Origin: a virus
Reading direction: 5' to 3' (one strand)
DNA: 61,875 nucleotides
UHGV virus genome: UHGV-0856201
Below are positions 1 to 61,875 of the stretch, one piece after another. Within the stretch, counting starts at the first letter, position 1. Every line of letters starts with the position of its first letter. Made by a program: the position numbers and the translations under genes. Under the pieces are notes generated by a model, which searched no databases, was not told the DNA's origin, and saw only the letters and a program-made list of their open reading frames with translations.

Positions 1-139
1 TATTCAACAGGAAAACCACCTAATTAGAATTGCCGACCACAAACGGTCACTAACTTCCCTATGTTCTCTAACTTCCTCTTTACATCATTATTATTCATTA
101 GATACATTAGTAATCTGCGTCACAAGGAGGAGTGTCTTA

Positions 140-190
140 TGTGCTATATATTTGAAGACAGTGACGAATGGCTGAGTTTATGCCGCCAGA
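140..190 (+). promoter_or_regulatory. Anellovirus UTR core (TATA-like box plus conserved UTR motif)
   Basis: tatata at 145-150; cgaatggctgagtttatgccgc at 165-186, recognised as the conserved anellovirus UTR element. Confidence 0.6.
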
Positions 191-333
191 CGAAGACGGG
201 ATCACTTCAGTGACTCCAGGCTGAACTTGGGCGGGTGCCGAAGGTGAGTGAAACCACCGAAGTCAAGGGGCAATTCGGGCTAGTTCAGTCTGGCGGAACG
301 GGCAAGAAACTTAATATATATTATTTTACAGAT

Positions 334-618
334 ATGTTCCACAACCCAAACTATGGACACCACCGCCTACAATTGAAAATAACTAACACCTGCATCCAAG
401 TCCACGGATTAACCTGTTCCTGCAACAATCCAGGATTCCACTTACTACAAATTCTAACCACCCAAATAGGAAAAGAACTAAAACCAGAAGAAAAAAATCA
501 AATTAAACAATGCCTTGGAAACCAAGATACTACCGCCGCCGGTGGAGACGACGACCATATTTTTGGAGACCTAGAAGAACTTTTCGAAAAAGATTTTACA
601 GACGCCGATACTGGGTAA
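334..618 (+). CDS. Anellovirus ORF2-like protein
   Basis: ATG at 334 in frame of ORF 235-618; H-x3-C-x-C-x5-H signature (HGLTCSCNNPGFH); overlaps ORF1 start as in anelloviruses. Confidence 0.55.
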   Translation: MFHNPNYGHHRLQLKITNTCIQVHGLTCSCNNPGFHLLQILTTQIGKELKPEEKNQIKQCLGNQDTTAAGGDDDHIFGDLEELFEKDFTDADTG

Positions 619-1619
619 GCAGACGACGCTTTAAAAGAAAATTAAAAAAACTTTTAGTTAAAGAATATCAACCGCATTCTATAAGAAAATGTACTGTTAA
701 AGGACTACTATGTTTATTTCAGACTGATGTACAAAGAATAGGATTTAATTTTGATATGTATGAAGAATCTTTTGTACCAGATAAACTACCAGGTGGAGGA
801 GGCTTTAGCATAAAAAACTTATCATTATACAGTTTATATATAGAACACATAAACGGCCACAACATTTTTACACACTCCAACATCTATTACCCTCTGGTTA
901 GATACTTAGGATGCCAACTAAAATTTTACCAAAGTGCAAATGTAGACTACATAGTAACATACAGCAATACATGGCCATTAGAAAGCAACTTACAAATGTA
1001 CAACACCATGCAACCAGCCATTCACTCACTACAAAAAAACAAAATAATGATACCAGCAAAATCCACACAAAAAAGAAAAAGACCTTATAAAAAAGCATTT
1101 ATACCACCACCAACACAAATGAAATCACAATGGTACTTTGCCGCAGACATAGCAAAAAAACCACTACTAATGCTAAGAACCTCTAGCTGTTCTTTTGATC
1201 ACTGGTACATAGGCACAAGAATGATCAGCACAAACATAACTATATACACATTAAACTCATTAATGATTCAAAACAGACACTGGAATATATCAAACTATCA
1301 ATACTTCTCAAGATACTTAGGAACACAAAAATACTACCTATACAGCACAACACAAACATTTAATGTAATTACAGAACTAGAATTAAAACATGTTATATGT
1401 CTAGGAGACACAAAAAGAAATGTACCAGGAATTTCCTACTGGGACTTATATAAACAAGACCCCACAACAACAGAATTAGAAAAATACAAATCCCAAAAGA
1501 ACTGGGGAAACTGCTTTCATACTAATTATTTACAAGAACATGACCCTGTATTTGCAAGTCAAACAGACTGGGCAACAATAATCACAAAAATAGCAAGCAA
1601 AACCAAAAGACCACAGTAG
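510..1619 (+). CDS. Anellovirus ORF1 (capsid) N-terminal portion, interrupted
   Basis: Arg-rich N-terminus MPWKPRYYRRRWRRRPYFWRPRR; A-rich composition unlike rest of window; stops at 1617-1619, 61 nt before the phage junction. Confidence 0.75.
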   Translation: MPWKPRYYRRRWRRRPYFWRPRRTFRKRFYRRRYWVSRRRFKRKLKKLLVKEYQPHSIRKCTVKGLLCLFQTDVQRIGFNFDMYEESFVPDKLPGGGGFSIKNLSLYSLYIEHINGHNIFTHSNIYYPLVRYLGCQLKFYQSANVDYIVTYSNTWPLESNLQMYNTMQPAIHSLQKNKIMIPAKSTQKRKRPYKKAFIPPPTQMKSQWYFAADIAKKPLLMLRTSSCSFDHWYIGTRMISTNITIYTLNSLMIQNRHWNISNYQYFSRYLGTQKYYLYSTTQTFNVITELELKHVICLGDTKRNVPGISYWDLYKQDPTTTELEKYKSQKNWGNCFHTNYLQEHDPVFASQTDWATIITKIASKTKRPQ

Positions 1620-1684
1620 CAGATTTACCATACACATTTACAGACATACAACTAGTGGAACAAGTAAGATACAACCCATTCCTG

Positions 1685-2029
1685 TCAGTTAACATACTTC
1701 GCGATCAGTTTATCACAGTCCTCGCGACAGGTAGCATACTTAAACAGGTCACTTGCTGCTTCTGCCCGGTAGTCAGTATCAATAGTGTAATGTTCATTGA
1801 CATAGTTATAGGCTGCAAGGTAATTGCTGAACATCCCACTGGTTACCACTTTCGGTTGTCCCCTTACGACCTTACCGTTAAACAGATATGCTATTAGCAA
1901 AATCAGACCACCGATCACAGGACTTGTGAGAAATGCGATAAAGAACCATACACCAGAGTTACGACCTGTTTGTTTGGCAACACCCGCGACAACCAGAGAG
2001 AAAAGAATCCATAAAATAGTGAATAGCAT
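1685..2029 (-). CDS. small membrane protein (phage)
   Basis: 114-aa ORF with hydrophobic segments; RBS aaggagg; first gene downstream of promoter copy at 2050-2100. Confidence 0.5.
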   Translation of the reverse strand: MLFTILWILFSLVVAGVAKQTGRNSGVWFFIAFLTSPVIGGLILLIAYLFNGKVVRGQPKVVTSGMFSNYLAAYNYVNEHYTIDTDYRAEAASDLFKYATCREDCDKLIAKYVN

Positions 2030-2049
2030 GATTATGTCCTCCTTTGTTT

Positions 2050-2100
2050 TGATGTTTGTAGGTTACACGTCCTTGTGTAATCCGTCAAGAATTATTTTAA
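2050..2100 (-). promoter_or_regulatory. conserved phage early promoter (copy 1)
   Basis: plus-strand gtcaagaattatttta at 2084-2099; -35 TTGACG on minus strand with AT-rich upstream element. Confidence 0.6.
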
Positions 2101-2340
2101 ATTATCGTAGACAGGCGGTAAGCCCATTGCAGCCTGTACAGACCGTTTTTCGTATTCCTCCCGAAGTTTCTGAAGTCGTTCAATACCGATGTCACAACCA
2201 CGTATTATATCAGCGCACAGGTCGTTGTAGGTCGCTTCAGATTGCTTGCTGTGTGGGTAATCAACACAGGATGGATCTGCAATAATGACTTTCGGCAGAT
2301 ACGCGACAGTATCGCCCATTGCGTTTTTAAATATCGTCAT
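2092..2340 (-). CDS. hypothetical protein
   Basis: 82-aa ORF in compact minus-strand operon; no recognised motif. Confidence 0.4.
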   Translation of the reverse strand: MTIFKNAMGDTVAYLPKVIIADPSCVDYPHSKQSEATYNDLCADIIRGCDIGIERLQKLREEYEKRSVQAAMGLPPVYDNLK

Positions 2341-4992: not shown

Positions 4993-5952
4993 ATGGCTAC
5001 TAAAGACCCATACCCGGATATTTCAGACAAGTATGACGCTCGCATTCGCGAAGCACTTGACGTTGTGTGGGAAAACGTGCGTCGTAGTGAGTCGTTAGCT
5101 AACCTGGAATACATCATTGAAACTCAGGGTATTGCCGGGCTACTCCCCATTCTTGAAACACTCCCTGATGAACTTAGTGCACAGTTGCGCCCGGTTATTG
5201 AAGACGCGATCGCCGAATCAGGTCGTGTAGTCGTTCAGGTTTTACCGAAAGCGGCTGTGACAGGTCCGGTTGTGTTCAGTCTGGTCACCCCACAGGTCAG
5301 TACATACATCAACAACTATGTCGGACAACTGATCCGTGAAGTCAGTGACGAAACAGTCAAAGCTGTTCAGATTGCTGTTAACCAGGGTGTGGTAACCGGA
5401 CGAAATCCGCGTCAGATAGCCCGTGATTTTCGATCATCAATAGGGTTAACCACACGGCAGGAAATGACGGTTCAACGTCTGCGATCAGCACTGGAAAAAG
5501 GTGAAGCAGGTTATGTGAACAGTCTGACCACTGTTACAGACAGTGCAAAGAACGCTGTAAGTGCCGGGAAACTATCACAGGCGAAGATTGACCAGATAAT
5601 CGAACAGACACGCTTGCGTTACGTAAAACAGCGTACAGAGACAATAGCGCGTACTGAATCACTTCGTGCTGTATCAGTTGGTCAGGATCAGGCAATACGT
5701 CAGGGACAGATTACCGGGGCTATTAGTAATGAATTGCTGAAGCGCTGGTTATATAGAAAGGATGGTCGGACACGTGATGCGCATATTTCCACGGGTGAAA
5801 CGAACGGTTGGATACCAATGGACAGACCGTTTTCAACGCCGTTAGGACCACTCATGTTTCCTCGTGATCCTAACGGTAGTGCCGCGAACGTGATTAATTG
5901 TCGTTGCAGGGTTGCTTATTCTCTCCCTCAAGATATAAATGTTATCCCGTGA
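4993..5952 (+). CDS. head morphogenesis protein (Mu F-like / SPP1 gp7-like)
   Basis: 319 aa; C-terminal NVINCRCRV motif and overall pattern typical of Mu-F family minor head proteins. Confidence 0.65.
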   Translation: MATKDPYPDISDKYDARIREALDVVWENVRRSESLANLEYIIETQGIAGLLPILETLPDELSAQLRPVIEDAIAESGRVVVQVLPKAAVTGPVVFSLVTPQVSTYINNYVGQLIREVSDETVKAVQIAVNQGVVTGRNPRQIARDFRSSIGLTTRQEMTVQRLRSALEKGEAGYVNSLTTVTDSAKNAVSAGKLSQAKIDQIIEQTRLRYVKQRTETIARTESLRAVSVGQDQAIRQGQITGAISNELLKRWLYRKDGRTRDAHISTGETNGWIPMDRPFSTPLGPLMFPRDPNGSAANVINCRCRVAYSLPQDINVIP

Positions 5953-6865
5953 TTATACGTATTAGAGTGGTTATATTTGGATTCCATTTTAACCACTCTG
6001 TACAACCATCGAACCCGGTTAATCCTGCAGATTCAAAATGAGAATGAAAATCTTTTTCAAGTGAACGAATGGTTTTACCATCAGAATTATATATTTCAAT
6101 AACATTGAATTCAAAAGGTGTTCTTTTCTTCAATATTTTTATTCTATTTTCAACATTGTTGCTAATACCTATTTTAACATAACTACCGCATAGAGATCTT
6201 AAAACATATAAGCTAGCTTTGTTTTTGATTTTAAAACCTGTTGCAGCGCAACCTGCACAACGTCTGTCAGTATGTAATAATGTTGTAGGTGTTGTTATAA
6301 ATTCACCATGTTTTTGACATTTAATTTTTATCTTACTGTATTGATTAACATACCCATTGACCCAACCCAAAAATTCATAATTTAATGACAAACATTTTTC
6401 ATTTATCTCTTTTTCTCTTATATGTAATGGTGTCTTTTTATTTTCAAAATAACATTTCTTACAGAAACTTTTATTTATAGTAATGTTGTTACCGGAAGAC
6501 ACCCACTGACCATGTTTAGTACATTCTATTAATGCTTTTGTGCGAACACCATGATAATTTTCAATCCATTTTACAAATTTATAACCTCGCGAGTTACAAA
6601 TATTAGTGATACGTTTTTCATATTCTTTTTGGTCTATACTATTTTTTAGTGCTATGTTCTCATTACTACATTTCTTACAAAAATTTCTACCATTCACTAT
6701 CAAATCAGAGGATGTTTCCCACTCACCATGTTTTTGACAATGCATTATTAGTCTACTTGATGCATTCTTGTAACCATTTAAGAATCTGACAAAATGATAA
6801 ATAGTACCTTTGCAAATTTCTGAAATCTCTGAAAGTCTTTCATGTTCTGTTTTTCGTTTAGTCAA
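5942..6865 (-). CDS. T5orf172-domain protein with Zn-ribbon repeats (homing-endonuclease-like), paralog 1
   Basis: Repeated CxKHGxW...CKKC modules; C-terminal YVLRS...KIGIS...GFDGCTEWL typical of T5orf172 domain. Confidence 0.65.
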   Translation of the reverse strand: MTKRKTEHERLSEISEICKGTIYHFVRFLNGYKNASSRLIMHCQKHGEWETSSDLIVNGRNFCKKCSNENIALKNSIDQKEYEKRITNICNSRGYKFVKWIENYHGVRTKALIECTKHGQWVSSGNNITINKSFCKKCYFENKKTPLHIREKEINEKCLSLNYEFLGWVNGYVNQYSKIKIKCQKHGEFITTPTTLLHTDRRCAGCAATGFKIKNKASLYVLRSLCGSYVKIGISNNVENRIKILKKRTPFEFNVIEIYNSDGKTIRSLEKDFHSHFESAGLTGFDGCTEWLKWNPNITTLIRIITG

Positions 6866-14242: not shown

Positions 14243-15214
14243 CTATAACATCCGTATCAGAGTGGTTATATTTGGATTCCATTTTAACCACTCTGTACAA
14301 CCATCGAACCCTGTTAATCCTGCAGATTCAAAATGAGAATGAAAATCTTTTTCAAGTGAACGAATGGTTGCCCCGTGTCCATTCAATTTTTCTATTACTT
14401 GAAAATCAAATGGTGTTTTTCTACGAAGTGTATTAATTCTTTGCTCTACACAATTACTGATACCTATTTTAACGTAACGACCGCATGTGGACCGCAAGAC
14501 ATAAAGTGTTGCATACTTACCAGCTTTAAACCCTGTTTTACTACAGTTTGGACAACCTTTTTGTTTACTAAGAAAAGAATTAATTGTTGTAACAAAATCA
14601 CCATGCGTTGAACACTTTAATGATATTTTAGATTTCCATGTCGGATGTTCGTCGAATATCTTATTAAAAAACAACCCTGTTTCTTTACATCTATTTGTTA
14701 TTTCAATTTCTCGTTCTTGTTTAGTTTTCTGTCTATTCGTTATACACAATGGACAATCAACAGATGTAAAGATTAGTCTATTGACTGTTGTCTCCCATCC
14801 ACCATGATCAATACAGCTCAGCAAACAAACAGAATTTCCATTTTGAAAATTAGTTTTAAATTTAATAAACTTTGATTTAGAATCTGTTAAACTGTTTTTA
14901 ATCTGTGCAATTCTTAACCCTTTTGTGGTTCGTGTTCCACCACAGATTGGACAACCAGAACCATTCAAAAAATGATAACATTTAGTGTCCCATTCCCCGT
15001 GTGTAACACAAGATAAAATAATTCGTGATTCTTTGTTTTTAAACCCGTCTTTCCATTTTATAAATTTGTAATTTTTTGATTGACAAATATCTTTTATGTT
15101 ATGCTCTAGTTGTTCTTTGGTTAGTCTTTTACCGCCCATTTTTCTACCTTTAGGTTTGTCAATGACTAGCAAAATCAATGATATAAATCGTATTACTGGA
15201 GTGTTTAAAGACAT
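14243..15214 (-). CDS. T5orf172-domain protein with Zn-ribbon repeats, paralog 2
   Basis: C-terminus nearly identical to paralog 1 (GFDGCTEWLKWNPNITTLIR); repeated C..HGxW..C modules. Confidence 0.65.
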   Translation of the reverse strand: MSLNTPVIRFISLILLVIDKPKGRKMGGKRLTKEQLEHNIKDICQSKNYKFIKWKDGFKNKESRIILSCVTHGEWDTKCYHFLNGSGCPICGGTRTTKGLRIAQIKNSLTDSKSKFIKFKTNFQNGNSVCLLSCIDHGGWETTVNRLIFTSVDCPLCITNRQKTKQEREIEITNRCKETGLFFNKIFDEHPTWKSKISLKCSTHGDFVTTINSFLSKQKGCPNCSKTGFKAGKYATLYVLRSTCGRYVKIGISNCVEQRINTLRRKTPFDFQVIEKLNGHGATIRSLEKDFHSHFESAGLTGFDGCTEWLKWNPNITTLIRML

Positions 15215-17550: not shown

Positions 17551-17718
17551 TTAGCGTTTGGCGAGATAGTCACAACGGGCGATTGCTAAATCTGCAGTCT
17601 TGTACGAAGACTCACTTGTTGAATGGGTTGTTCCAATAACCATTACATGATATCCGTCTTTGTTTTTTAGAACCCAAAACTTACCGTTTTCATGAATAAT
17701 ATTTTTCTCTTTGGTCAT
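17551..17718 (-). CDS. small hypothetical protein (55 aa)
   Basis: MTKEKNIIHENGKFWVLKNKDGYHVMV...; downstream of promoter copy 5. Confidence 0.35.
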   Translation of the reverse strand: MTKEKNIIHENGKFWVLKNKDGYHVMVIGTTHSTSESSYKTADLAIARCDYLAKR

Positions 17719-17739
17719 CGTCTTATCCTCAGTTCGTTT

Positions 17740-17792
17740 CGTTGAGTTAAAGATACCTTAACAGGTGTAATTCGTCAAGAATTATTTTAAAT
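17740..17792 (-). promoter_or_regulatory. conserved phage early promoter (copy 5)
   Basis: ttcgtcaagaattattttaaat; -35 TTGACG 17773-17778 (minus). Confidence 0.6.
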
Positions 17793-18278: not shown

Positions 18279-18574
18279 TCGACTTCCTCTTGTGGAACGA
18301 TAAGACAGACGGGGACGACCTGGACTGGGTTACACAAGGGGCGGCTGCACGTGGTATATCTGTTCCGGTTGTTGTACAGAAACGTCCTGAATTGCGACCT
18401 GATGCTATCTTTTACTGGAATGCTTATTTGGATCTGATGGAAGCTGATTGGGTTGCTTGTGAGCGTTATGCACGGGTGTATAACGTTGATGTACAATTCT
18501 TGTGGAAATTATTGGTAGCATTGCGGTCTGCACGTGTTGTCGAGATGAAGAAAAATAAACAAAAGCCCGGTTAG
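17856..18574 (+). CDS. tail assembly chaperone frameshift product (G-T-like fusion via -1 frameshift)
   Basis: Zero-frame gaa aaa aac tga; -1 frame opens at 18275 and runs to 18574 (..LIDFLLWNDKTDGDD..). Confidence 0.5.
18269..18275 (+). other. -1 programmed frameshift slippery heptamer A_AAA_AAC
   Basis: Heptamer in X_XXY_YYZ register just before the G stop codon. Confidence 0.55.
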
Positions 18575-18588
18575 TTCCGGGCGTTTTC
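18564..18588. terminator. putative bidirectional terminator
   Basis: gcccggttagttccgggc then gttttc, between convergent genes. Confidence 0.45.
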
Positions 18589-19485
18589 ATTTATGTAGTC
18601 GAGGATTGCAGGAGAGTATTTAAACCACTCTGTAGCACCGTCAAAGCCTTTGAGACGCGCATTAAGTTCACGGAAGACCTTGTGTACCTCTTGTTCCAGT
18701 TTGTAAGCATCAGCGCCGTGTGGAAACAGGTACGACACGAGTTTAACCACTGGGTGTGTTGTTTCGCGTTGTAGTTGTCGTAGTCGCCGTTTTAAGTCGT
18801 TTGTGATACCGACTTTAAGCAGAGTAGGGCACTTTTTATCGTCAGCTAACACGTAGAGTGTACCGGGTTCTGACGGGTTAAAACCTGTTTGTGAACACTG
18901 AGGACAACCATGTTTTTTATGCAAATGCATGGCTGGACGTTGTTCAAACACTCCATGCTCTGGGCAGATGATTTTTATTCGAGTGAAATTGTTAATATAC
19001 GCCACCAACGAATAGTCGTAACGGTCCCCATGAACTTCGCGAGCACGAGTAATGAAATCTTCGGCGCCTAAGCGTTTTTGTTCAGACGACTGTTTACGAG
19101 CACATTGTGGGCAACCTTTCCCGTGAACATGATTGCCCGGTGTCTGTTCAAACACATCATGTATCGGACAGATAATCTTCACAGGTGTGCACCAATTCAC
19201 ATACTCCACCAGCGAATAGTCATACTTGTCACCATGAACTTCACGAGCACGAGTGATAAACTCTTCTGTGGTTAAACGTTTTTGTTCAACAGTACATTGG
19301 GTACAACCTGCTTTCATTGAAGTGTGATTGTTCGGAGTCTGTTCAAATACCCCGTGTTCGGGGCAGATAATTTTTACTTTGGTGTTAGCACCTTCATACT
19401 CCACTAGCGAGTAATCGTATTTGTGCCCATGAACTTCACGGGCACGCGTGATAAACTCTTCTGTGGTTAAACGTTTCCTACTCAT
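18571..19485 (-). CDS. T5orf172-domain protein with three Zn-ribbon repeats, paralog 3
   Basis: Three repeats of FITRAREVHGxKYDYSLV..KIICPEHGVFEQ; C-terminal GTLYVL..LKVGIT..GFDGATEWF. Confidence 0.65.
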   Translation of the reverse strand: MSRKRLTTEEFITRAREVHGHKYDYSLVEYEGANTKVKIICPEHGVFEQTPNNHTSMKAGCTQCTVEQKRLTTEEFITRAREVHGDKYDYSLVEYVNWCTPVKIICPIHDVFEQTPGNHVHGKGCPQCARKQSSEQKRLGAEDFITRAREVHGDRYDYSLVAYINNFTRIKIICPEHGVFEQRPAMHLHKKHGCPQCSQTGFNPSEPGTLYVLADDKKCPTLLKVGITNDLKRRLRQLQRETTHPVVKLVSYLFPHGADAYKLEQEVHKVFRELNARLKGFDGATEWFKYSPAILDYINENARN

Positions 19486-19486
19486 C

Positions 19487-19666
19487 TTATTTGTCGCTTT
19501 TTAACACAGACCAGATTAACGCACCTAACCAACCGACGAATGTCCAACCCGCAAAGATGTTAAGTAAAATAATTGCTGTTTGTTGTTTATGTTTAACGTT
19601 AATCGCGATGAGTGCTGGGATCAGATATACAGCAGCGATTAAGAAAAGAATGATGAAAGTAGCCAT
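19487..19666 (-). CDS. small membrane protein, superinfection-immunity-like
   Basis: 59 aa MATFIILFLIAAVYLIPALIAINVKHKQQTAIILLNIFAGWTFVGWLGALIWSV; resembles Imm_superinfect family. Confidence 0.45.
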   Translation of the reverse strand: MATFIILFLIAAVYLIPALIAINVKHKQQTAIILLNIFAGWTFVGWLGALIWSVLKSDK

Positions 19667-19689
19667 TTTGTAACCCTCCTTTGTTTTGA

Positions 19690-19738
19690 TGTTTGTAGGT
19701 TACACGTCCTTGTGTAATCCATCAAGAATTATTTTAAA
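19690..19738 (-). promoter_or_regulatory. conserved phage early promoter (copy 6)
   Basis: ccatcaagaattattttaaacg; -35 TTGATG; upstream segment near-identical to copy 1. Confidence 0.55.
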
Positions 19739-19800
19739 CGTTTGTCGCTTTTTAGACCCGTGTTAAACTGTGTACATGCTTCACGAAAAGGTTAACCAAC

Positions 19801-22703
19801 ATGGCACAATATCCTATTGATATTAAGATTGACACCGGTTCGGCTGACCGCAATCTTAATAATCTTAACAGTCAGTTAGATCAGACTGAAAAATCAACCA
19901 TAGCGGCAACACAGGCTGCTAATCAGTTATCTGTGGCTGAACAGCAGGTTGCAAAAGCAGCACAGCAACTGGCACAACAACAAGCTAATCAGGCTGCGCG
20001 TACTATAGCAACTGCTCGCGCTACTCGTGAAGCGGCACAGGAACAATCACGCCTGTTAGCAACACAGGGTGCTGCTGCTCGTGCGGCTGGTCAGACTGTT
20101 AATAATCAACAGAAATTTGCTGAATTAGCCAAAATTATCAAACAAGCAACTGCTGATGAAAAGAAAGCAATTGACGATCTGACTAACAGTCTTAAAAAAC
20201 TTGATAATCAGCAGAATAACACTAACCAATCAACACAAAAAACTAAGGGCGCTCTTGAAACACTTGTCACTGGTGCAAAAGCGTTTGTCGGTTTACAGAT
20301 TGCAGGATCGCTTTACGACTGGGGTAAAGCCTTTGTAGATACTGCAACGAAAGTCGAACTGCTACAAAGTCGTATCAATCTGTACACATCAACGTCTGTC
20401 GAATCACAACAGATATTTGCGCAATTAGTACAACAAGCTAACCGTGCTGGTACAGATATTGACGCTGTGGCAAACAGTTTTCAGCGTTTTGCCGCTGCTG
20501 GTAAAGATGCCGGGATTAGTAATCAGGTTATTTTACAGTTTACCGACAACCTGCAAAAAATGGCCCGTGTATCTGGTGCATCCAGTGCTGAAGCATCTGC
20601 GGCTATTTATCAATTGTCACAGGCATTTGCATCTGGTCTTTTGCAGGGGGATGAATTCCGATCTGTGTCAGAACAGTTACCAACTGTTCTTCAGGTGCTG
20701 GCTAAACAGATGGGTGTTACCACGGATGAACTTAAACAGTTAGGTTCTGATGGCGAAATTACCCGTGATAAACTGTTATTGTTAAACAACGCGACTGATG
20801 AAATCAGCGCACAGTTCGATAAACTTCCTCGTTCTGTAGATCAGTCTGCCACTGCGTTACGTAACAACCTGTCCGTGGCTATCGCTGAACTCGATCAGCA
20901 GATTGGCGCATCTAAATTCCTGGCTAAATTCCTGGACCTGTTAGCAGGTGGTGTATCGGGTACAACAGAGTTAATAAAAGCCGCTGCAGGTGCTGACAAA
21001 CTGGCACAAGCCACTAACAATCTGAATAGTGTTACCGCAAAACGTGAAGCCAATCTGAAAGAAATTGCAGATCTGGAAGCACAAATTCAGCGTGGGTATA
21101 CAACACAGTCAATTGGTGGGTATACAAAATTTGTTGGTGACACCAGTGCTGCACAGAAGAAATTAAACGAACTTAAAAAACTTGATGTTCAGTTAACAAA
21201 ACAACAAGCAGAAGCACAACGAGGGGTTGTTCAGGCTACTCCGTTGGGTAAGGGTGTTGCTGAAAATCTTGCAAATCAGGCAAGCACTTTACAGGCGAGT
21301 ATTACGGCTGCTCAGGCTGCCGGACGTCCTGATGCCGAATCTGCAAAACAGATTAAAAACCTGAAAGAACAGATCACCTACACCCAGGCGCTTGCTGACG
21401 GTAACTATGAACTGGCAGCAAGTCAGAAACTGGGTAATAAAGCAACTAAGGAACAGATTGCAGACTATGCTGCATTGTTGAAACAACAGGCAGAATATAA
21501 AGAAAACCAAAAAAACAGAAGGAATCAGCGAGTGCTGCTAAACGTGCACAGAAAGAACTGGAACGTAATCAGGCTGCTAACCAGAAATACCTGAAAACGC
21601 TTCAGGATAAAATCAATGCTGGTAATTATGATGTTCAGTTAGCCCGCGAACAGGTTCAGATTGCTTTAACACAGGGGTCGTCTGTTGAACAACTTACAGC
21701 AACGTATCAGAAAGAATATCAGGTACGTCAACAGTTAACGCTGGCTTCACAACAAGCAGAAGCACAGTCACGACTGAATAAAGACGCGACAGATGCTGAA
21801 CGTGCTGCTGTTGATGCACATGTGGCTGCATTGCAACGTCAACAGCAGATAGCACAGTTAAGCGCAGATGTAAAACAAGTTGACATTGATGTGAAAGCAC
21901 AGTTGAACCCGTATCAATCACAAATTGATCAGGTTAATCAACAGGAAGCAACACGTCTTAGTATTATCCAAGCTGCCCGTGAACAAGATTTAATCAACGA
22001 ACAACAATACCAGGATATGAAAACGCAGATTCAACAGGCTGGGGAACAAGCCCGTACGAATCTTGCAAACGCTAACTACAGCTTGTTGCTACAATCCAGT
22101 GCTGATTTTTTGGGTCAAATGGCTGCTGGTCTGGCACAATCTAAAGGTGAGCAATCAAACGCGTATAAAGCGATGTTTGCACTGTCTAAAGCCTTTAGTA
22201 TCGCACAGGCGAGTATTAACCTGTGGACAGCCGTTAGTCAGGCTATGGCGTTGCCGTTCCCGGCGAATATTCCGTTCATTGCACAGGCTTTATCATACGG
22301 GACAAGTGTGTTAGGTAACATTCAGTCTGTGGCTGCAACAGGTTTTGCAACGGGTGGTTATGTTAAAGGTCCGGGTACAGGTCAGAGTGACAGTATAAAC
22401 GCACGTTTGAGTAATGGTGAGTTTGTCAGTACCAAACAGGCTACCAGTCGTTATCGTAGCACTCTGGAAGCAATGAATCGTGGCACATATACACCAGGAT
22501 CTGAAGGTGGTTCATCACCTAATATTCAGGTTCATAACTACGGTGGTGAACGTGTTCAGGTGAAACAAGGATTAACACGAGATGACGTAGTGCTTATCAT
22601 AGGTGAAGAATTCCCACGACAATCAGCGGCACAATGGAATGACCCGTACAGTCAGACGAATAAAGCGTTCAGGTCTAACTATGATGCGAACAGGAAAATA
22701 TAA
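19801..22703 (+). CDS. tape measure protein, split by a -1 frame change at an A7 run
   Basis: ORFs 19801-21594 and 21501-22703 are both TMP-like; frames overlap 21501-21594. Confidence 0.7.
21510..21516 (+). other. A_AAA_AAC heptamer at the tape measure frame change
   Basis: Same heptamer and register as the chaperone site; a -1 slip here continues the ORF to 22703. Confidence 0.4.
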
Positions 22704-48072: not shown

Positions 48073-48708
48073 ATGAAAATTTCAGACCGGGCTAAAAGGG
48101 CTGCTCTGGAGTTAACAACAGATCAACTCCGTTTCGCTAACCTGTGGTTAGATCGTGTCAATAACGGCTTCAGCAACGCTCAGTGCGTCTTACACGCTTA
48201 TCCGGGGCATAAAGACCCTGACGCAGCTAAAGTCACCGCACACCGCCTCCTGTCGAATACAAAGGTGTTGAACTATCTGGACGCGATGGGGAGTCATGCG
48301 CTTGAGTCTGTCGGGGAATCGTTAACGAGTCGTGTCGAGTGGTGGAAACGAGCGGCAAGCACGGCTGAAGAATTACTGGAACCGTATTGTCAGCGCGTTA
48401 TCGTCCCTGGCGAAGACGACACAGAAGCGAAACACCTGTGGGTGAACAGTACCGACGATATCCCCAGCCATCTGCAACAGTACGTAGTTTGCTACAAACG
48501 TTACATGCTGGGCGGATATATTCTGGTGACGCGTGAATTGTTCGATCCGAAAACTCGTGCAAAAGCGTCTGAACAACTGGATAAGATCACCGGGAACAGT
48601 ATCGACCGTGTGGAATTGTCTGGCGTGGTTGGTAACGTGGTTCAGAGTGTTCCTGAAGGTGCAACTATCGACGACATCGCGCAACTGTACCAGAAAGCAC
48701 TTAAATAA
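48073..48708 (+). CDS. terminase small subunit
   Basis: Start MKISDRAK; N-terminal DNA-binding-like region (LTTDQLRFANLW...NAQCVLHAY) resembles Terminase_2 family. Confidence 0.55.
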   Translation: MKISDRAKRAALELTTDQLRFANLWLDRVNNGFSNAQCVLHAYPGHKDPDAAKVTAHRLLSNTKVLNYLDAMGSHALESVGESLTSRVEWWKRAASTAEELLEPYCQRVIVPGEDDTEAKHLWVNSTDDIPSHLQQYVVCYKRYMLGGYILVTRELFDPKTRAKASEQLDKITGNSIDRVELSGVVGNVVQSVPEGATIDDIAQLYQKALK

Positions 48709-48826: not shown

Positions 48827-49033
48827 TTACTGTGCTACAACTTCAAAAACTGTCCGTTCTGTACCGTTATCAAAACGACCTAAAGCAAAACGACCATCTT
48901 CACGCTTGTGAACGTTCCATGCCAGACCCTGGTGATATACAATCATGTCATCAACATCCAGTGAAACAACAGCGCCGATTTTAAAAGCGCCTGACATCAT
49001 ATCTTTAGCGCGTTTGATTACTTTCAGTTCCAT
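48827..49033 (-). CDS. hypothetical protein
   Basis: 68-aa ORF at end of island operon. Confidence 0.35.
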   Translation of the reverse strand: MELKVIKRAKDMMSGAFKIGAVVSLDVDDMIVYHQGLAWNVHKREDGRFALGRFDNGTERTVFEVVAQ

Positions 49034-49059
49034 TTTTCAGTTCCTCACAATTCGTTGTC

Positions 49060-49112
49060 TATGTAAGTAATTTACACGTCCTTGTGTAATCCGTCAAGAA
49101 TTATTTTAAACT
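49060..49112 (-). promoter_or_regulatory. conserved phage early promoter (copy 11)
   Basis: ccgtcaagaattattttaaactg; -35 TTGACG 49092-49097 (minus). Confidence 0.6.
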
Positions 49113-60060: not shown

Positions 60061-60187
60061 TCCTGTCAGTTAACATACTTCGCGATCAGTTTATCACAGT
60101 CCTCGCGACAGGTAGCATACTTAAACAGGTCACTTGCTGCTTCTGCCCGGTAGTCAGTATCAATAGTGTAATGTTCATTGACATAGT
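60061..60187. repeat. 127-bp exact repeat of phage start (1681-1807); circular-contig overlap
   Basis: 60061-60187 identical to 1681-1807; length 127 equals a common assembler k-mer size. Confidence 0.9.
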
Positions 60188-60287
60188 NNNNNNNNNNNNN
60201 NNNNNNNNNNNNNNNNNNNNNNNNNNNNNNNNNNNNNNNNNNNNNNNNNNNNNNNNNNNNNNNNNNNNNNNNNNNNNNNNNNNNNNN
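60188..60287. other. 100-N scaffold gap
   Basis: Run of exactly 100 N. Confidence 1.
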
Positions 60288-60414
60288 CGTGAATTGTTCG
60301 ATCCGAAAACTCGTGCAAAAGCGTCTGAACAACTGGATAAGATCACCGGGAACAGTATCGACCGTGTGGAATTGTCTGGCGTGGTTGGTAACGTGGTTCA
60401 GAGTGTTCCTGAAG
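60288..60414. repeat. 127-bp exact repeat of phage 48532-48658 (inside terS)
   Basis: Identical to terS internal segment; diverges into anellovirus sequence at 60415. Confidence 0.9.
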
Positions 60415-61454
60415 ACAAACAACAACTAGAGCAACACGCAGGAAACCCTTTTACATCAGAATATTTAACTAATCCAGAAGGACTATTCACAAGCACAAAA
60501 GACCCTACAAACTTTTTTCTACAATTTACAGAAAAAACACAAGCACTTGAAACACATAAAACAACATTAAACTACAATCACCTACAACACCCATTAATAT
60601 TAGAAACAAGATACAATCCAAATAAAGACCAAGGCCTACATAACAAAGCATATGTACTACCAGTAAACAAACCAGGAGTTAACTGGACACCACCAAATGA
60701 TGAAGACTTAATATTAGAAGGATTTCCAATATGGTTACTAATATTTGGATTTATAGACTACATTAAAAAAACTCAAAAGCTAATTAATGTAGACGAAAAA
60801 CATGTACTATGCATACAAACATCTAACACAAACCCAAAATGGGACCAACCTATTATACCACTCTCATATACATTTGAAGAAGGACACAGCCCTTACAGCA
60901 AACAATTAAACCCATATGACACAGACAAATGGTATCCACAAATACAATACCAAGAAGAAGCCATAAATGATATTATAAAATGTGGACCAGGAACAGCTAA
61001 AATAGGAGACAGACTTAGTGAAGAGATTAAATGTGAATATGAATTTTATTGGAAATGGGGAGGACATCCACCTAAAATGCTAACTATAGACAATCCTGCA
61101 CAACAGGGAACATATCCCATACCCCGTAACAGCATCACATCAAATTCGTTACAGAATCCAGCAACACCACCAGAGTACTTCTTATACAGCTTCGACGAAA
61201 GACAGGGACTGCTTACAAAAACAGCTGCAAAAAGAATTAGAAAAGACTGGGAATCTAAAGACTATGTATCTGACTTTACAGAATCAACAAAAGAAGTCCC
61301 AATGCAAACACTCCAAACATCATCCGACGAAACATCGGACTCGGAAAAAGAAGAGGAGACACTACTCCAGCAGCTCCACCGACAGCAACAGCACCAGAAG
61401 CAGCTCAAGCGCCGAATTCTCAGATTAATGCAGAAAAATCCAAATTTAGAATAA
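60415..61454 (+). CDS. Anellovirus ORF1 C-terminal portion (partial)
   Basis: A-rich, Thr/Asn/Lys-rich ORF ending in Ser/Glu-rich and basic tail; composition matches 510-1619. Confidence 0.65.
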
Positions 61455-61658
61455 TACAATGTACTCAATATGTTAAACTGTTTGATGATAAAACTGTAAA
61501 AAATAGACGCATGAATAAGTATGAAATGGAACATGAAAAAGATGTAGCTAAAGCCTTTTGTAGACCACCAAAAAAATTCTTACTTGATGTACCATACTAC
61601 CCATGGGTAGACATCCCAGAACCACTTGTAAACTTTCACCTGAGATATAACTTTGATG

Positions 61659-61664
61659 AATAAA
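61659..61664 (+). promoter_or_regulatory. polyadenylation signal (AATAAA)
   Basis: aataaa ~200 nt downstream of ORF1 stop, as in anelloviruses. Confidence 0.5.
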
Positions 61665-61749
61665 CAAGGCCAACAATATTCACTTAGTGGTGTCAGTTTA
61701 TATAAGTTAAAACCTAAATAAACATCCGTTACCAATTGAAATTTGTTGG

Positions 61750-61840
61750 CGCCAAAAGGGGGCTCCGCCCCCTTTAACCCCCAAGGGGGCTCCGCCCCCT
61801 TAAACCCCCAAAGGGGGCTCCGCCCCCTTAAACCCCCGGA
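61750..61840. repeat. Anellovirus GC-rich region with three ~27-bp repeats
   Basis: gggggctccgccccc at 61758, 61785 and 61813, each followed by ttaaaccccc. Confidence 0.8.
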
Positions 61841-61875
61841 AACCACAAAATTTGCATTGCCGACCACAAACGAAC

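What the first reader, a model, noticed from the sequence alone, without database searches (positions are those of the whole stretch)
19487..19738. Superinfection-immunity-like membrane protein co-transcribed with a T5orf172 gene
The 59-aa protein with motif NIFAGWTFVGWLGALIWSV lies between promoter copy 6 and T5orf172 paralog 3, and its stop is 1 nt from the endonuclease start. A similar promoter / small membrane protein arrangement starts the 2029-1685 operon, whose promoter-proximal sequence is near-identical. This suggests a duplicated early exclusion module.
Basis: partly seen in the sequence, partly recalled or inferred. Interest (0 to 1): 0.4.

Follow-up and report, generated by a model that had tools for sequence, protein, structure and literature searches.

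The report
Phage superinfection-immunity gene in mobile cassette
The 59-residue gene is a clear member of the phage T4 Imm family of membrane proteins that keep a second phage's DNA out of an infected cell. It sits with a homing-endonuclease gene in a small mobile cassette next to the tape-measure gene, and near-identical genes in public relatives already carry this annotation, so the finding is sound but ordinary.

Summary
Window 19487..19666 (-) encodes a 59-aa protein with two hydrophobic segments. It matches Pfam PF14373 Imm_superinfect over the whole model (62.5 bits, cut-off 27.9), slightly better than T4 Imm itself (58.2). Its stop lies 1 nt before the ATG of a T5orf172 endonuclease gene (18571..19485). 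Upstream is one of about 14 copies of a phage promoter (TTGAC-17-TAnnnT with an A/T-rich upstream element).

The window is a Sashavirus/Nonanavirus coliphage. Its closest relative, Bas82, already annotates these genes as "superinfection immunity protein" and "endonuclease".

New context: promoter, imm and endonuclease form a roughly 1.17-kb antisense cassette between the tail assembly chaperone and tape-measure genes. This is the slot of the HK97 gp15 moron. The cassette is absent from Sasha, AVIO78A and PDP46, and here it sits in an AVIO78A-like backbone, so it moved as a unit.

The "duplicated exclusion module" is not supported. Only the promoter and 5'UTR (63/64 nt) recur at 2038-2101, and the 114-aa protein there is unrelated to Imm.

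Likely mechanism, inferred from T4: the protein sits in the inner membrane and blocks the incoming tape-measure protein. No experiment exists for this subfamily.

The parts
19487..19666 (-). imm: 59-aa Imm_superinfect (PF14373) protein with two hydrophobic segments
   Evidence: Pfam 62.5 bits against cut-off 27.9, model positions 1-42/42. PHROG 1039. BLASTP to T4 Imm E=9e-8. Hydropathy peaks at residues 1-26 and 31-55. Only 0-3 nt differences in 180 nt across 7 phages.
19697..19738 (-). sigma-70-type promoter: A/T-rich upstream element TTTAAAATAATTC (19738-19726), -35 TTGATG (19725-19720), 17-nt spacer, -10 TAACCT (19702-19697)
   Evidence: One of 14 copies sharing TTGAC-17-TAnnnT. The motif occurs 15 times against 0.27 expected. 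Relatives have TTGACG at this copy. The generic promoter scan did not call it because the -10 matches only 3 of 6 positions.
19700..19717 (.). perfect palindrome TTACAC-N6-GTGTAA overlapping the spacer and -10; operator-like
   Evidence: Read. It is also identical at the promoters at 2098 and 49107. In relatives the arms are kept while the centre varies. A function has not been tested.
19675..19680 (-). Shine-Dalgarno AGGAGG, 8 nt before the imm ATG
   Evidence: Sequence reading.
18571..19485 (-). T5orf172 (GIY-YIG-like) putative homing endonuclease, 304 aa, with three DUF723-type (treble-clef) zinc-finger repeats; no Shine-Dalgarno of its own, start 1 nt after the imm stop (TAAGATG)
   Evidence: PF10544 55.2 bits, DUF723 in 3 stretches, DUF4379. 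PHROG 681 'endonuclease' 3.8e-85. Truncated in PJ16 (203 aa) and BDX09P1 (213 aa).
18565..18582 (.). bidirectional terminator hairpin GCCCGG-TTAGTT-CCGGGC shared with the convergent tail assembly chaperone gene; both stop codons lie in its loop
   Evidence: The hairpin is also present at the empty site of Sasha, PDP46 and AVIO78A.
18591..19759 (-). whole inserted cassette (promoter, imm, T5orf172), about 1.17 kb, replacing ATATTATGGTTAAC of the empty site
   Evidence: Empty and occupied sites compared. The cassette is absent from Sasha, Sergei, Solent, PDP46, AVIO78A and 9NA. The flanks are AVIO78A-like and the cassette is Bas82-like.
19490..19503 (.). 14-nt direct repeat, copy 1 (TTTGTCGCTTTTTA), covering the last codons of imm
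   Evidence: Only two copies in the window. The same base change occurs in both copies in Bas82.
19741..19754 (.). 14-nt direct repeat, copy 2, just upstream of the promoter
2038..2101 (-). paralogous promoter and 5'UTR, 63/64 identical to 19675-19738, driving the unrelated 114-aa two-segment membrane protein ORF 1685..2029

Best explanation
A moron-like mobile cassette lies antisense in the tail operon of a Sashavirus/Nonanavirus coliphage. A host-type sigma-70 promoter drives a bicistronic transcript. The first cistron is a 59-aa member of the T4 Imm family (PF14373). The second is a T5orf172 homing-type endonuclease, probably translated by coupling to imm.

By analogy with T4 Imm, the small protein would insert into the inner membrane soon after infection. 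There it would bind the tape-measure protein of later-arriving related phages, so that no channel forms and their DNA does not reach the cytoplasm. The endonuclease accounts for the cassette's mobility, and imm travels with it.

Shown here: family membership, gene arrangement, promoter family, insertion boundaries, and transfer of the cassette between backbones.

Inferred: timing of expression, membrane location, exclusion activity, tape-measure protein as the target, and nuclease activity.
For: Family:
- PF14373 at 62.5 bits over the full model; T4 Imm itself scores 58.2.
- Pairwise BLASTP E=9e-8 to T4 Imm.
- The tryptophan needed for T4 Imm activity (W50) is conserved as W41.
- JD18, whose imm lies between the DNA polymerase and thymidylate synthase genes as in T4, is also in the family.

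Mechanism precedent:
- T4 Imm co-purifies with and binds the tape-measure helical-bundle domain (preprint 10.64898/2026.03.06.709160).
- HK97 gp15 is an unrelated small inner-membrane exclusion protein in the same chaperone/tape-measure slot (PMC3594210).

Arrangement: promoter, Shine-Dalgarno, 1-nt gap and a shared terminator.

Mobility:
- The cassette is absent from six relatives.
- The window's flanks are 1-1.4% from AVIO78A, which lacks the cassette, while the cassette is 1-2% from Bas82.
- All three T5orf172 genes are presence/absence polymorphic. This matches the T5orf172 homing endonuclease class described in PMC10448857.

Selection or recent spread: imm differs by 0-3 of 180 nt among 7 phages, while adjacent segments differ by 1-27% (mostly 5% or more). 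imm stays intact where the endonuclease is truncated.

In Skatevirus-type phages and in prophage-like contigs, Imm-family genes also sit next to tail or tape-measure genes.
Against: - No experiment exists for any siphovirus Imm homologue.
- The family is very large (7,759 cluster representatives at E<=1e-3). Members seen here include prophage-like contigs and versions fused to a SHOCT domain, and most members have no tested function.
- The core arginine that matters in T4 Imm (R33) is valine here (V24, with K25 next to it).
- The -10 hexamer is weak, and the -35 in this window carries a C>T change relative to relatives.
- The structure model is only moderately confident and gave no informative fold match.
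- All imm differences between phages are non-synonymous, although there are only 0-3 per pair.
Confidence: 0.6

Rival explanations
1. imm is mainly a passenger or promoter donor for a selfish homing endonuclease. The cassette spreads by homing and co-conversion, and the small protein gives the phage little or no exclusion benefit.
For: imm has zero synonymous differences across phages whose neighbouring genes differ by 5-27%. This fits recent horizontal spread better than long-term purifying selection. The cassette transferred into an AVIO78A-like backbone. The endonuclease has no promoter or Shine-Dalgarno of its own and depends on the imm unit.
Against: imm stays intact and nearly invariant in PJ16 and BDX09P1, where the endonuclease is truncated. 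Imm-family genes occupy similar tail-module positions without any endonuclease in Skatevirus-type phages.
Confidence: 0.15
2. The protein has a different membrane role, such as modulating lysis timing, protecting against pore-forming colicins or tailocins, or countering a host defence, rather than blocking DNA entry of related phages.
For: It is a very small two-helix membrane protein of a very large family in which most members have no tested function. The T4-critical arginine is not conserved. The T4 study itself compares Imm with colicin immunity proteins.
Against: The only characterised member is an exclusion protein. The loop tryptophan is conserved. The gene sits by the tape-measure gene rather than in a lysis cassette. 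PADLOC models give no hit.
Confidence: 0.15
3. One reading: two copies of an early exclusion module, with the 114-aa protein at 1685..2029 acting as a second exclusion protein.
For: The promoter and 5'UTR are 63/64 identical and share the same operator-like palindrome. The 114-aa protein has two N-terminal hydrophobic segments. Both proteins give weak hits to PHROG 8436.
Against: There is no BLASTP alignment between the two proteins. The 114-aa protein has no Pfam hit and falls in a separate PHROG of unknown function. The same promoter variant also drives a soluble Gp54-like protein at 48827..49033. No endonuclease follows the 114-aa gene.
Confidence: 0.08
4. The ORF is a chance or decaying reading frame with no function.
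For: It is short, and a mirror ORF of 60 aa lies on the opposite strand.
Against: Profile hit at E=3.4e-17. A strong Shine-Dalgarno at ideal spacing. Intact in seven phages with at most three amino-acid changes.
Confidence: 0.02

Closest known systems
Bas82_0048 (Escherichia phage KarinMuster_Bas82) and PJ16_056 (phage vB_EcoS_PJ16), both annotated 'superinfection immunity protein'
   Same: Same gene at the same site: 2 amino-acid differences in 59, same promoter, and the same 1-nt junction with the endonuclease gene.
   Different: The window carries the cassette in an AVIO78A-like backbone with a different tape-measure N-terminal half. Its -35 reads TTGATG rather than TTGACG. None of these genes has been tested experimentally.
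Phage T4 Imm (83 aa), the founding member of PF14373
   Same: Same Pfam family at full model coverage, 28% identity over 47 residues, and a conserved loop tryptophan. The likely action is the same: an inner-membrane block of genome entry through the tape-measure protein.
   Different: The protein is 24 residues shorter and lacks the longer N-terminal helix and the C-terminal tail. T4 R33 is valine here. The host phage is a siphovirus, not a myovirus. The gene sits beside the tape-measure gene and an endonuclease gene, not between genes 42 and 43.
HK97 gp15 moron (YebO family)
   Same: A small inner-membrane protein in its own transcription unit, inserted between the tail assembly chaperone and tape-measure genes. 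It blocks DNA entry in a manner that depends on the incoming phage's tail region.
   Different: No homology: gp15 matches PF13974 YebO, not PF14373. HK97 gp15 lies on the sense strand and is expressed from a prophage. It has no linked endonuclease.
Free-standing T5orf172 homing endonuclease genes with repeated zinc-finger DNA-binding domains (Barth, Dunham and Seed 2023, PMC10448857)
   Same: Same domain architecture, location next to an essential gene (the tape-measure gene), presence/absence polymorphism, and shuffling of the repeat domains between alleles.
   Different: Here the endonuclease is the second cistron behind an accessory membrane-protein gene and appears to borrow its promoter.
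Imm-family genes in Skatevirus-type siphoviruses (Bas77, SeSz-2, KP591P1)
   Same: 44-48% identical PF14373 proteins in Bas77 and SeSz-2, and about 42% over 80% of the query in KP591P1. All lie in an antisense accessory cassette inside the tail module.
   Different: The cassette partners differ (small hypothetical proteins and DUF551, with no endonuclease). They sit between the major tail protein gene and a hypothetical-protein gene that abuts the tape-measure gene.

Membership tests
Pfam PF14373 Imm_superinfect (T4 Imm family) | Profile match above the curated cut-off over the whole domain | tested here: met
   62.5 bits against 27.9, model positions 1-42/42, E=3.4e-17. T4 Imm scores 58.2 on the same model.
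Pfam PF14373 Imm_superinfect (T4 Imm family) | Direct sequence similarity to T4 Imm | tested here: met
   BLASTP E=9e-8, 13/47 identical.
Pfam PF14373 Imm_superinfect (T4 Imm family) | Loop tryptophan required for T4 Imm activity (W50) | tested here: met
   It aligns with W41, which is invariant in alignments A2 (Imm rows) and A4. The requirement comes from the T4 preprint.
Pfam PF14373 Imm_superinfect (T4 Imm family) | Core arginine that contributes to T4 Imm activity (R33) | tested here: not met
   It aligns with V24, with K25 adjacent. Other homologues keep arginine.
Pfam PF14373 Imm_superinfect (T4 Imm family) | Small integral inner-membrane protein | tested here: inconclusive
   Two hydrophobic segments by hydropathy. 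The AlphaFold2 model is a helical hairpin at pLDDT 72. Localisation cannot be tested with these tools.
Pfam PF14373 Imm_superinfect (T4 Imm family) | Early expression during infection | tested here: inconclusive
   Member of a 14-copy sigma-70-type promoter family. No expression data are available, and the -10 is weak.
Pfam PF14373 Imm_superinfect (T4 Imm family) | Blocks genome entry of superinfecting phage and binds its tape-measure protein | not testable with these tools
   Needs plating, DNA-entry and binding assays.
Moron (HK97 gp15 type) | Autonomous transcription unit inserted between genes that are adjacent in relatives | tested here: met
   It has its own promoter and a terminator. 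The chaperone and tape-measure genes are 72 nt apart in Sasha.
Moron (HK97 gp15 type) | Homology to gp15/YebO | tested here: not met
   gp15 matches PF13974; the window protein does not.
Moron (HK97 gp15 type) | Expressed from a repressed prophage | not tested
   The phage's lifestyle was not examined here. 9NA-like phages are regarded as virulent (general knowledge).
Free-standing T5orf172 homing endonuclease gene | T5orf172 catalytic domain plus zinc-finger DNA-binding repeats | tested here: met
   PF10544 at 55.2 bits; DUF723 in three stretches; DUF4379.
Free-standing T5orf172 homing endonuclease gene | Presence/absence at a fixed site among close relatives, with cassette ancestry differing from the backbone | tested here: met
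   The two paralogues are likewise polymorphic.
Free-standing T5orf172 homing endonuclease gene | Site-specific cleavage of the cassette-free allele | not testable with these tools
   Needs an in vitro cleavage assay or mixed-infection crosses.
   No BLASTP alignment. Different PHROGs and no Pfam hit for the 114-aa protein.

The most novel reading that the evidence does not exclude
imm is a selected cargo of the homing cassette, not a bystander. Under this reading the cassette sits next to the tape-measure gene because that gene encodes Imm's target. Homing would spread an exclusion determinant, and exclusion in turn would favour cassette-carrying phages against cassette-free relatives. The recurring placement of Imm-family genes beside tape-measure genes in unrelated siphoviruses and prophages would then reflect functional or co-evolutionary linkage. 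The 14-nt direct repeats bracketing promoter and imm would mark a separately exchangeable sub-module.
Probability: 0.15. Interest if true: 0.55.

Novelty: new member of a known kind. Interest (0 to 1): 0.25.

Why it matters
The main value is housekeeping: the gene is correctly named and already annotated in near-identical public genomes.

The context gives a modest extra point. A T4-type immunity gene in a siphovirus sits in the same slot as the HK97 gp15 moron, directly beside the tape-measure gene that recent T4 work identifies as Imm's target, and it is physically coupled to a homing endonuclease. That makes this a convenient system for two questions. One is whether tape-measure targeting by Imm proteins is general across tail types. 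The other is whether homing cassettes carry exclusion genes as useful cargo. The closest relative, Bas82, is a BASEL-collection phage that infects E. coli K-12 with restored O16 O-antigen.

Tried and rejected
- The word-indexed protein search returned only 4 relatives. The exhaustive search was needed to see the family's size.
- No solved structure matches by sequence.
- The AlphaFold2 model from a 5-sequence alignment was only moderately confident (pLDDT 72, pTM 0.35). Foldseek against viral models gave nothing below E=1, so there is no structural support either way.
- PADLOC and NCBIfam gave no hit for Imm or for the 114-aa protein.
- The generic promoter scan did not flag the repeated promoter because its -10 matches only 3 of 6 positions. 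The promoter call therefore rests on the conserved 14-copy pattern.
- I looked for target-site duplications or inverted repeats at the cassette ends and found none.
- I considered that the 114-aa protein might be a diverged Imm. I rejected this because there is no alignment and no shared family beyond a weak hit for both to PHROG 8436.
- A literature search for promoter descriptions in 9NA-like phages found nothing usable in the held library.

Full report
**What is at the coordinates**

On the minus strand, 19487..19666 encodes a 59-aa protein containing the quoted motif. Its TAA stop is followed by a single G and then the ATG of ORF 18571..19485.

The small protein matches Pfam PF14373 Imm_superinfect at 62.5 bits (cut-off 27.9, E=3.4e-17) over all 42 model positions. 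It also matches PHROG 1039 'immunity to superinfection'. T4 Imm, fetched from the T4 genome, scores 58.2 bits on the same model. It aligns directly with the window protein at 28% identity over 47 residues, E=9e-8.

Hydropathy shows two hydrophobic segments. An AlphaFold2 model of moderate confidence is a two-helix hairpin.

The downstream gene is a T5orf172 (GIY-YIG-like) protein with three DUF723-type (treble-clef) zinc-finger repeats. Two further T5orf172 genes lie at 5942..6865 and 14243..15214.

**Promoter**

The motif AAAATAATTCTTGAC occurs 15 times in the window at up to 2 mismatches, against 0.27 expected. Fourteen copies share TTGAC(g/a), a 17-nt spacer and a TAnnnT -10. This conservation pattern is what real sigma-70 promoters with an A/T-rich upstream element would show.

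The imm copy has:
- -35 TTGATG at 19725-19720 (TTGACG in relatives);
- -10 TAACCT at 19702-19697;
- AGGAGG 8 nt before the ATG.

A generic scan did not call this promoter because the -10 is weak. The same scan found no minus-strand terminator-like site before the bidirectional hairpin at 18565-18582. That hairpin also ends the convergent tail assembly chaperone gene. The endonuclease gene has no Shine-Dalgarno of its own, so a bicistronic, translationally coupled unit is the natural reading. This is inferred, not shown.

**Origin and prior annotation**

The window is a Sashavirus/Nonanavirus (9NA-like) coliphage. Its closest relative is Escherichia phage KarinMuster_Bas82, at 96.6% identity over this region. 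Bas82 and phage PJ16 already annotate the two genes as 'superinfection immunity protein' and 'endonuclease' or hypothetical protein. The identification is therefore not new.

**A mobile cassette**

In Sasha, Sergei, Solent, PDP46, AVIO78A and 9NA only the flanks match. In Sasha, PDP46 and AVIO78A, where I read the site, the chaperone terminator is followed within about 70 nt by the tape-measure start. The empty site reads ...GGGCTTTTTCAT|ATATTATGGTTAAC|GTGTTAAACTG.

In the window, about 1.17 kb (roughly 18591-19759) replaces the middle 14 nt. The cassette is present in seven genomes: the window, Bas82, PJ16, BDX09P1, 536P12 and two IMG/VR contigs.

The window's flanks are almost identical to AVIO78A, which lacks the cassette: 4/284 differences in the chaperone gene and 1/91 at the tape-measure 5' end. 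They differ by about 20% at the tape-measure 5' end from every other cassette carrier. The cassette itself is Bas82-like. So the cassette moved as a unit between backbones.

The other two T5orf172 genes are also insertions missing from most or all relatives. The endonuclease family is found in 606 phage records, with up to 12 matching places per genome among the listed records. All this matches the T5orf172 homing endonuclease class described by Barth et al. (PMC10448857).

**Conservation within the cassette**

imm differs by 0-3 of 180 nt among the seven phages, and none of the differences is synonymous. By comparison:
- the chaperone gene differs by 5-8%;
- the promoter and 5'UTR by 4-11%;
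- the endonuclease zinc-finger repeats by up to 27%.

The endonuclease is truncated in PJ16 and BDX09P1, while imm stays intact. This points to retention of imm independently of the endonuclease, to recent spread of the imm unit, or to both.

An exact 14-nt direct repeat (19490-19503 and 19741-19754) brackets the promoter plus imm. In Bas82 both copies carry the same base change. I cannot explain this.

**The 'duplicated module'**

The stretch 2038-2101 is 63/64 identical to 19675-19738. The identity ends at the Shine-Dalgarno sequence. The 114-aa protein behind it has two hydrophobic segments. However, it has no Pfam hit, falls in a different PHROG of unknown function, and gives no BLASTP alignment to Imm.

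A third copy of the same promoter variant (49047-49110) drives a soluble Gp54-like protein. What is repeated is a promoter variant carrying a perfect TTACAC-N6-GTGTAA palindrome over the -10, not an exclusion module.

**Likely mechanism**

A 2026 preprint shows that T4 Imm binds the helical-bundle domain of the T4 tape-measure protein. It also shows that W50A and R33A weaken exclusion (10.64898/2026.03.06.709160). W50 corresponds to the conserved W41 here. R33 corresponds to V24, with K25 next to it.

HK97 gp15 is an unrelated YebO-family membrane protein. It occupies the same chaperone/tape-measure slot and blocks DNA entry in a manner that depends on the incoming phage's tail region. Imm-family genes also lie in the tail module of Skatevirus-type phages, and directly upstream of the tape-measure gene in prophage-like contigs, where they are fused to a SHOCT domain.

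In T4-like phages, a 73-kb coliphage annotated vB_EcoP and a Vibrio phage they lie elsewhere, so the linkage is recurrent but not universal.

The C-terminal half of the tape-measure protein, including its hydrophobic stretch, is nearly identical between the Bas82 and AVIO78A proteins, a cassette carrier and a non-carrier. I therefore think the protein most likely blocks genome entry of related phages at the inner membrane by engaging their tape-measure protein. I put this at about 0.6 for exclusion and lower for the specific target.

**Verdict**

This is a sound but ordinary finding: a new member of a known family, already annotated in close relatives. The modest additions are the mobile-cassette context, the linkage to a homing endonuclease, and the position beside the likely target gene.

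Noticed in passing
window 1-1679 and 60188-61875: The window is a chimeric scaffold. Its ends are anellovirus sequence: TT_ORF1 N-terminal part at 510..1619, C-terminal part at about 60415..61454, a TT_ORF2-like ORF at 235..618, and GC-rich repeats at 61752-61837. The phage occupies 1680-60187, with an exact 127-nt overlap (1680-1806 = 60061-60187), implying a circular assembly of 58,381 bp. It is followed by 100 N (60188-60287) and an exact 127-nt copy of phage 48532-48658 at 60288-60414. This looks like a k=127 assembly or scaffolding artefact.
   Followed up: yes
window 19801-22703: The tape-measure gene is split into 19801..21594 and 21822..22703. The cause is a 1-nt deficit in an A7 run near 21516, relative to the intact 971-aa AVIO78A gene. 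After the shift the other frame continues to match. This is either a homopolymer sequencing error or a real frameshift.
   Followed up: partly
window 2063-2080, 19700-19717, 49072-49089: Three promoters (for the 114-aa membrane protein, imm and the Gp54-like protein) share an identical spacer with a perfect palindrome TTACAC-N6-GTGTAA overlapping the -10. In relatives the arms are kept while the centre varies. This suggests a common operator for a dimeric regulator.
   Followed up: partly
window 48827-49033 (-): A 68-aa protein matches PF25180 'phage antiviral trigger protein Gp54' at 65.6 bits.
   Followed up: no
window 14243-15214 (-) and 5942-6865 (-): Two further T5orf172 genes carry CapR-type zinc-finger domains. 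The first is absent at that site from every phage record searched. The second is present only in PDP46, and partly in Klebsiella phage KP13-27.
   Followed up: partly
window 19490-19503 and 19741-19754: An exact 14-nt direct repeat brackets the promoter plus imm. In Bas82 both copies carry the same substitution, which suggests gene conversion or assembly of the unit by recombination at this microhomology.
   Followed up: partly
window 17551-17718 (-), promoter at 17728-17791: [quoted passage not shown] It is a 55-aa soluble protein (PHROG 20712, function unknown) behind another copy of the promoter. The same slot holds genes of different length in Bas82 (87 aa) and Sasha (207 aa).
   Followed up: no
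window 19881-20400: The N-terminal part of the tape-measure gene is mosaic. It is only 58-78% identical to AVIO78A over about 400 nt, with several indels, while the rest is 95-100% identical. The N-terminal half is only weakly similar (low identity on inspection of the alignment) to the Bas82-type protein, whereas the C-terminal half is nearly identical.
   Followed up: partly
L014, L015, L017, L016 (IMG/VR contigs from bacterial genome projects): Imm_superinfect domains are fused to a C-terminal SHOCT domain. In L014, L015 and L017 they are encoded immediately upstream of an 852-853-aa ORF that I take to be the tape-measure gene from its size and position (not profile-tested).
   Followed up: partly
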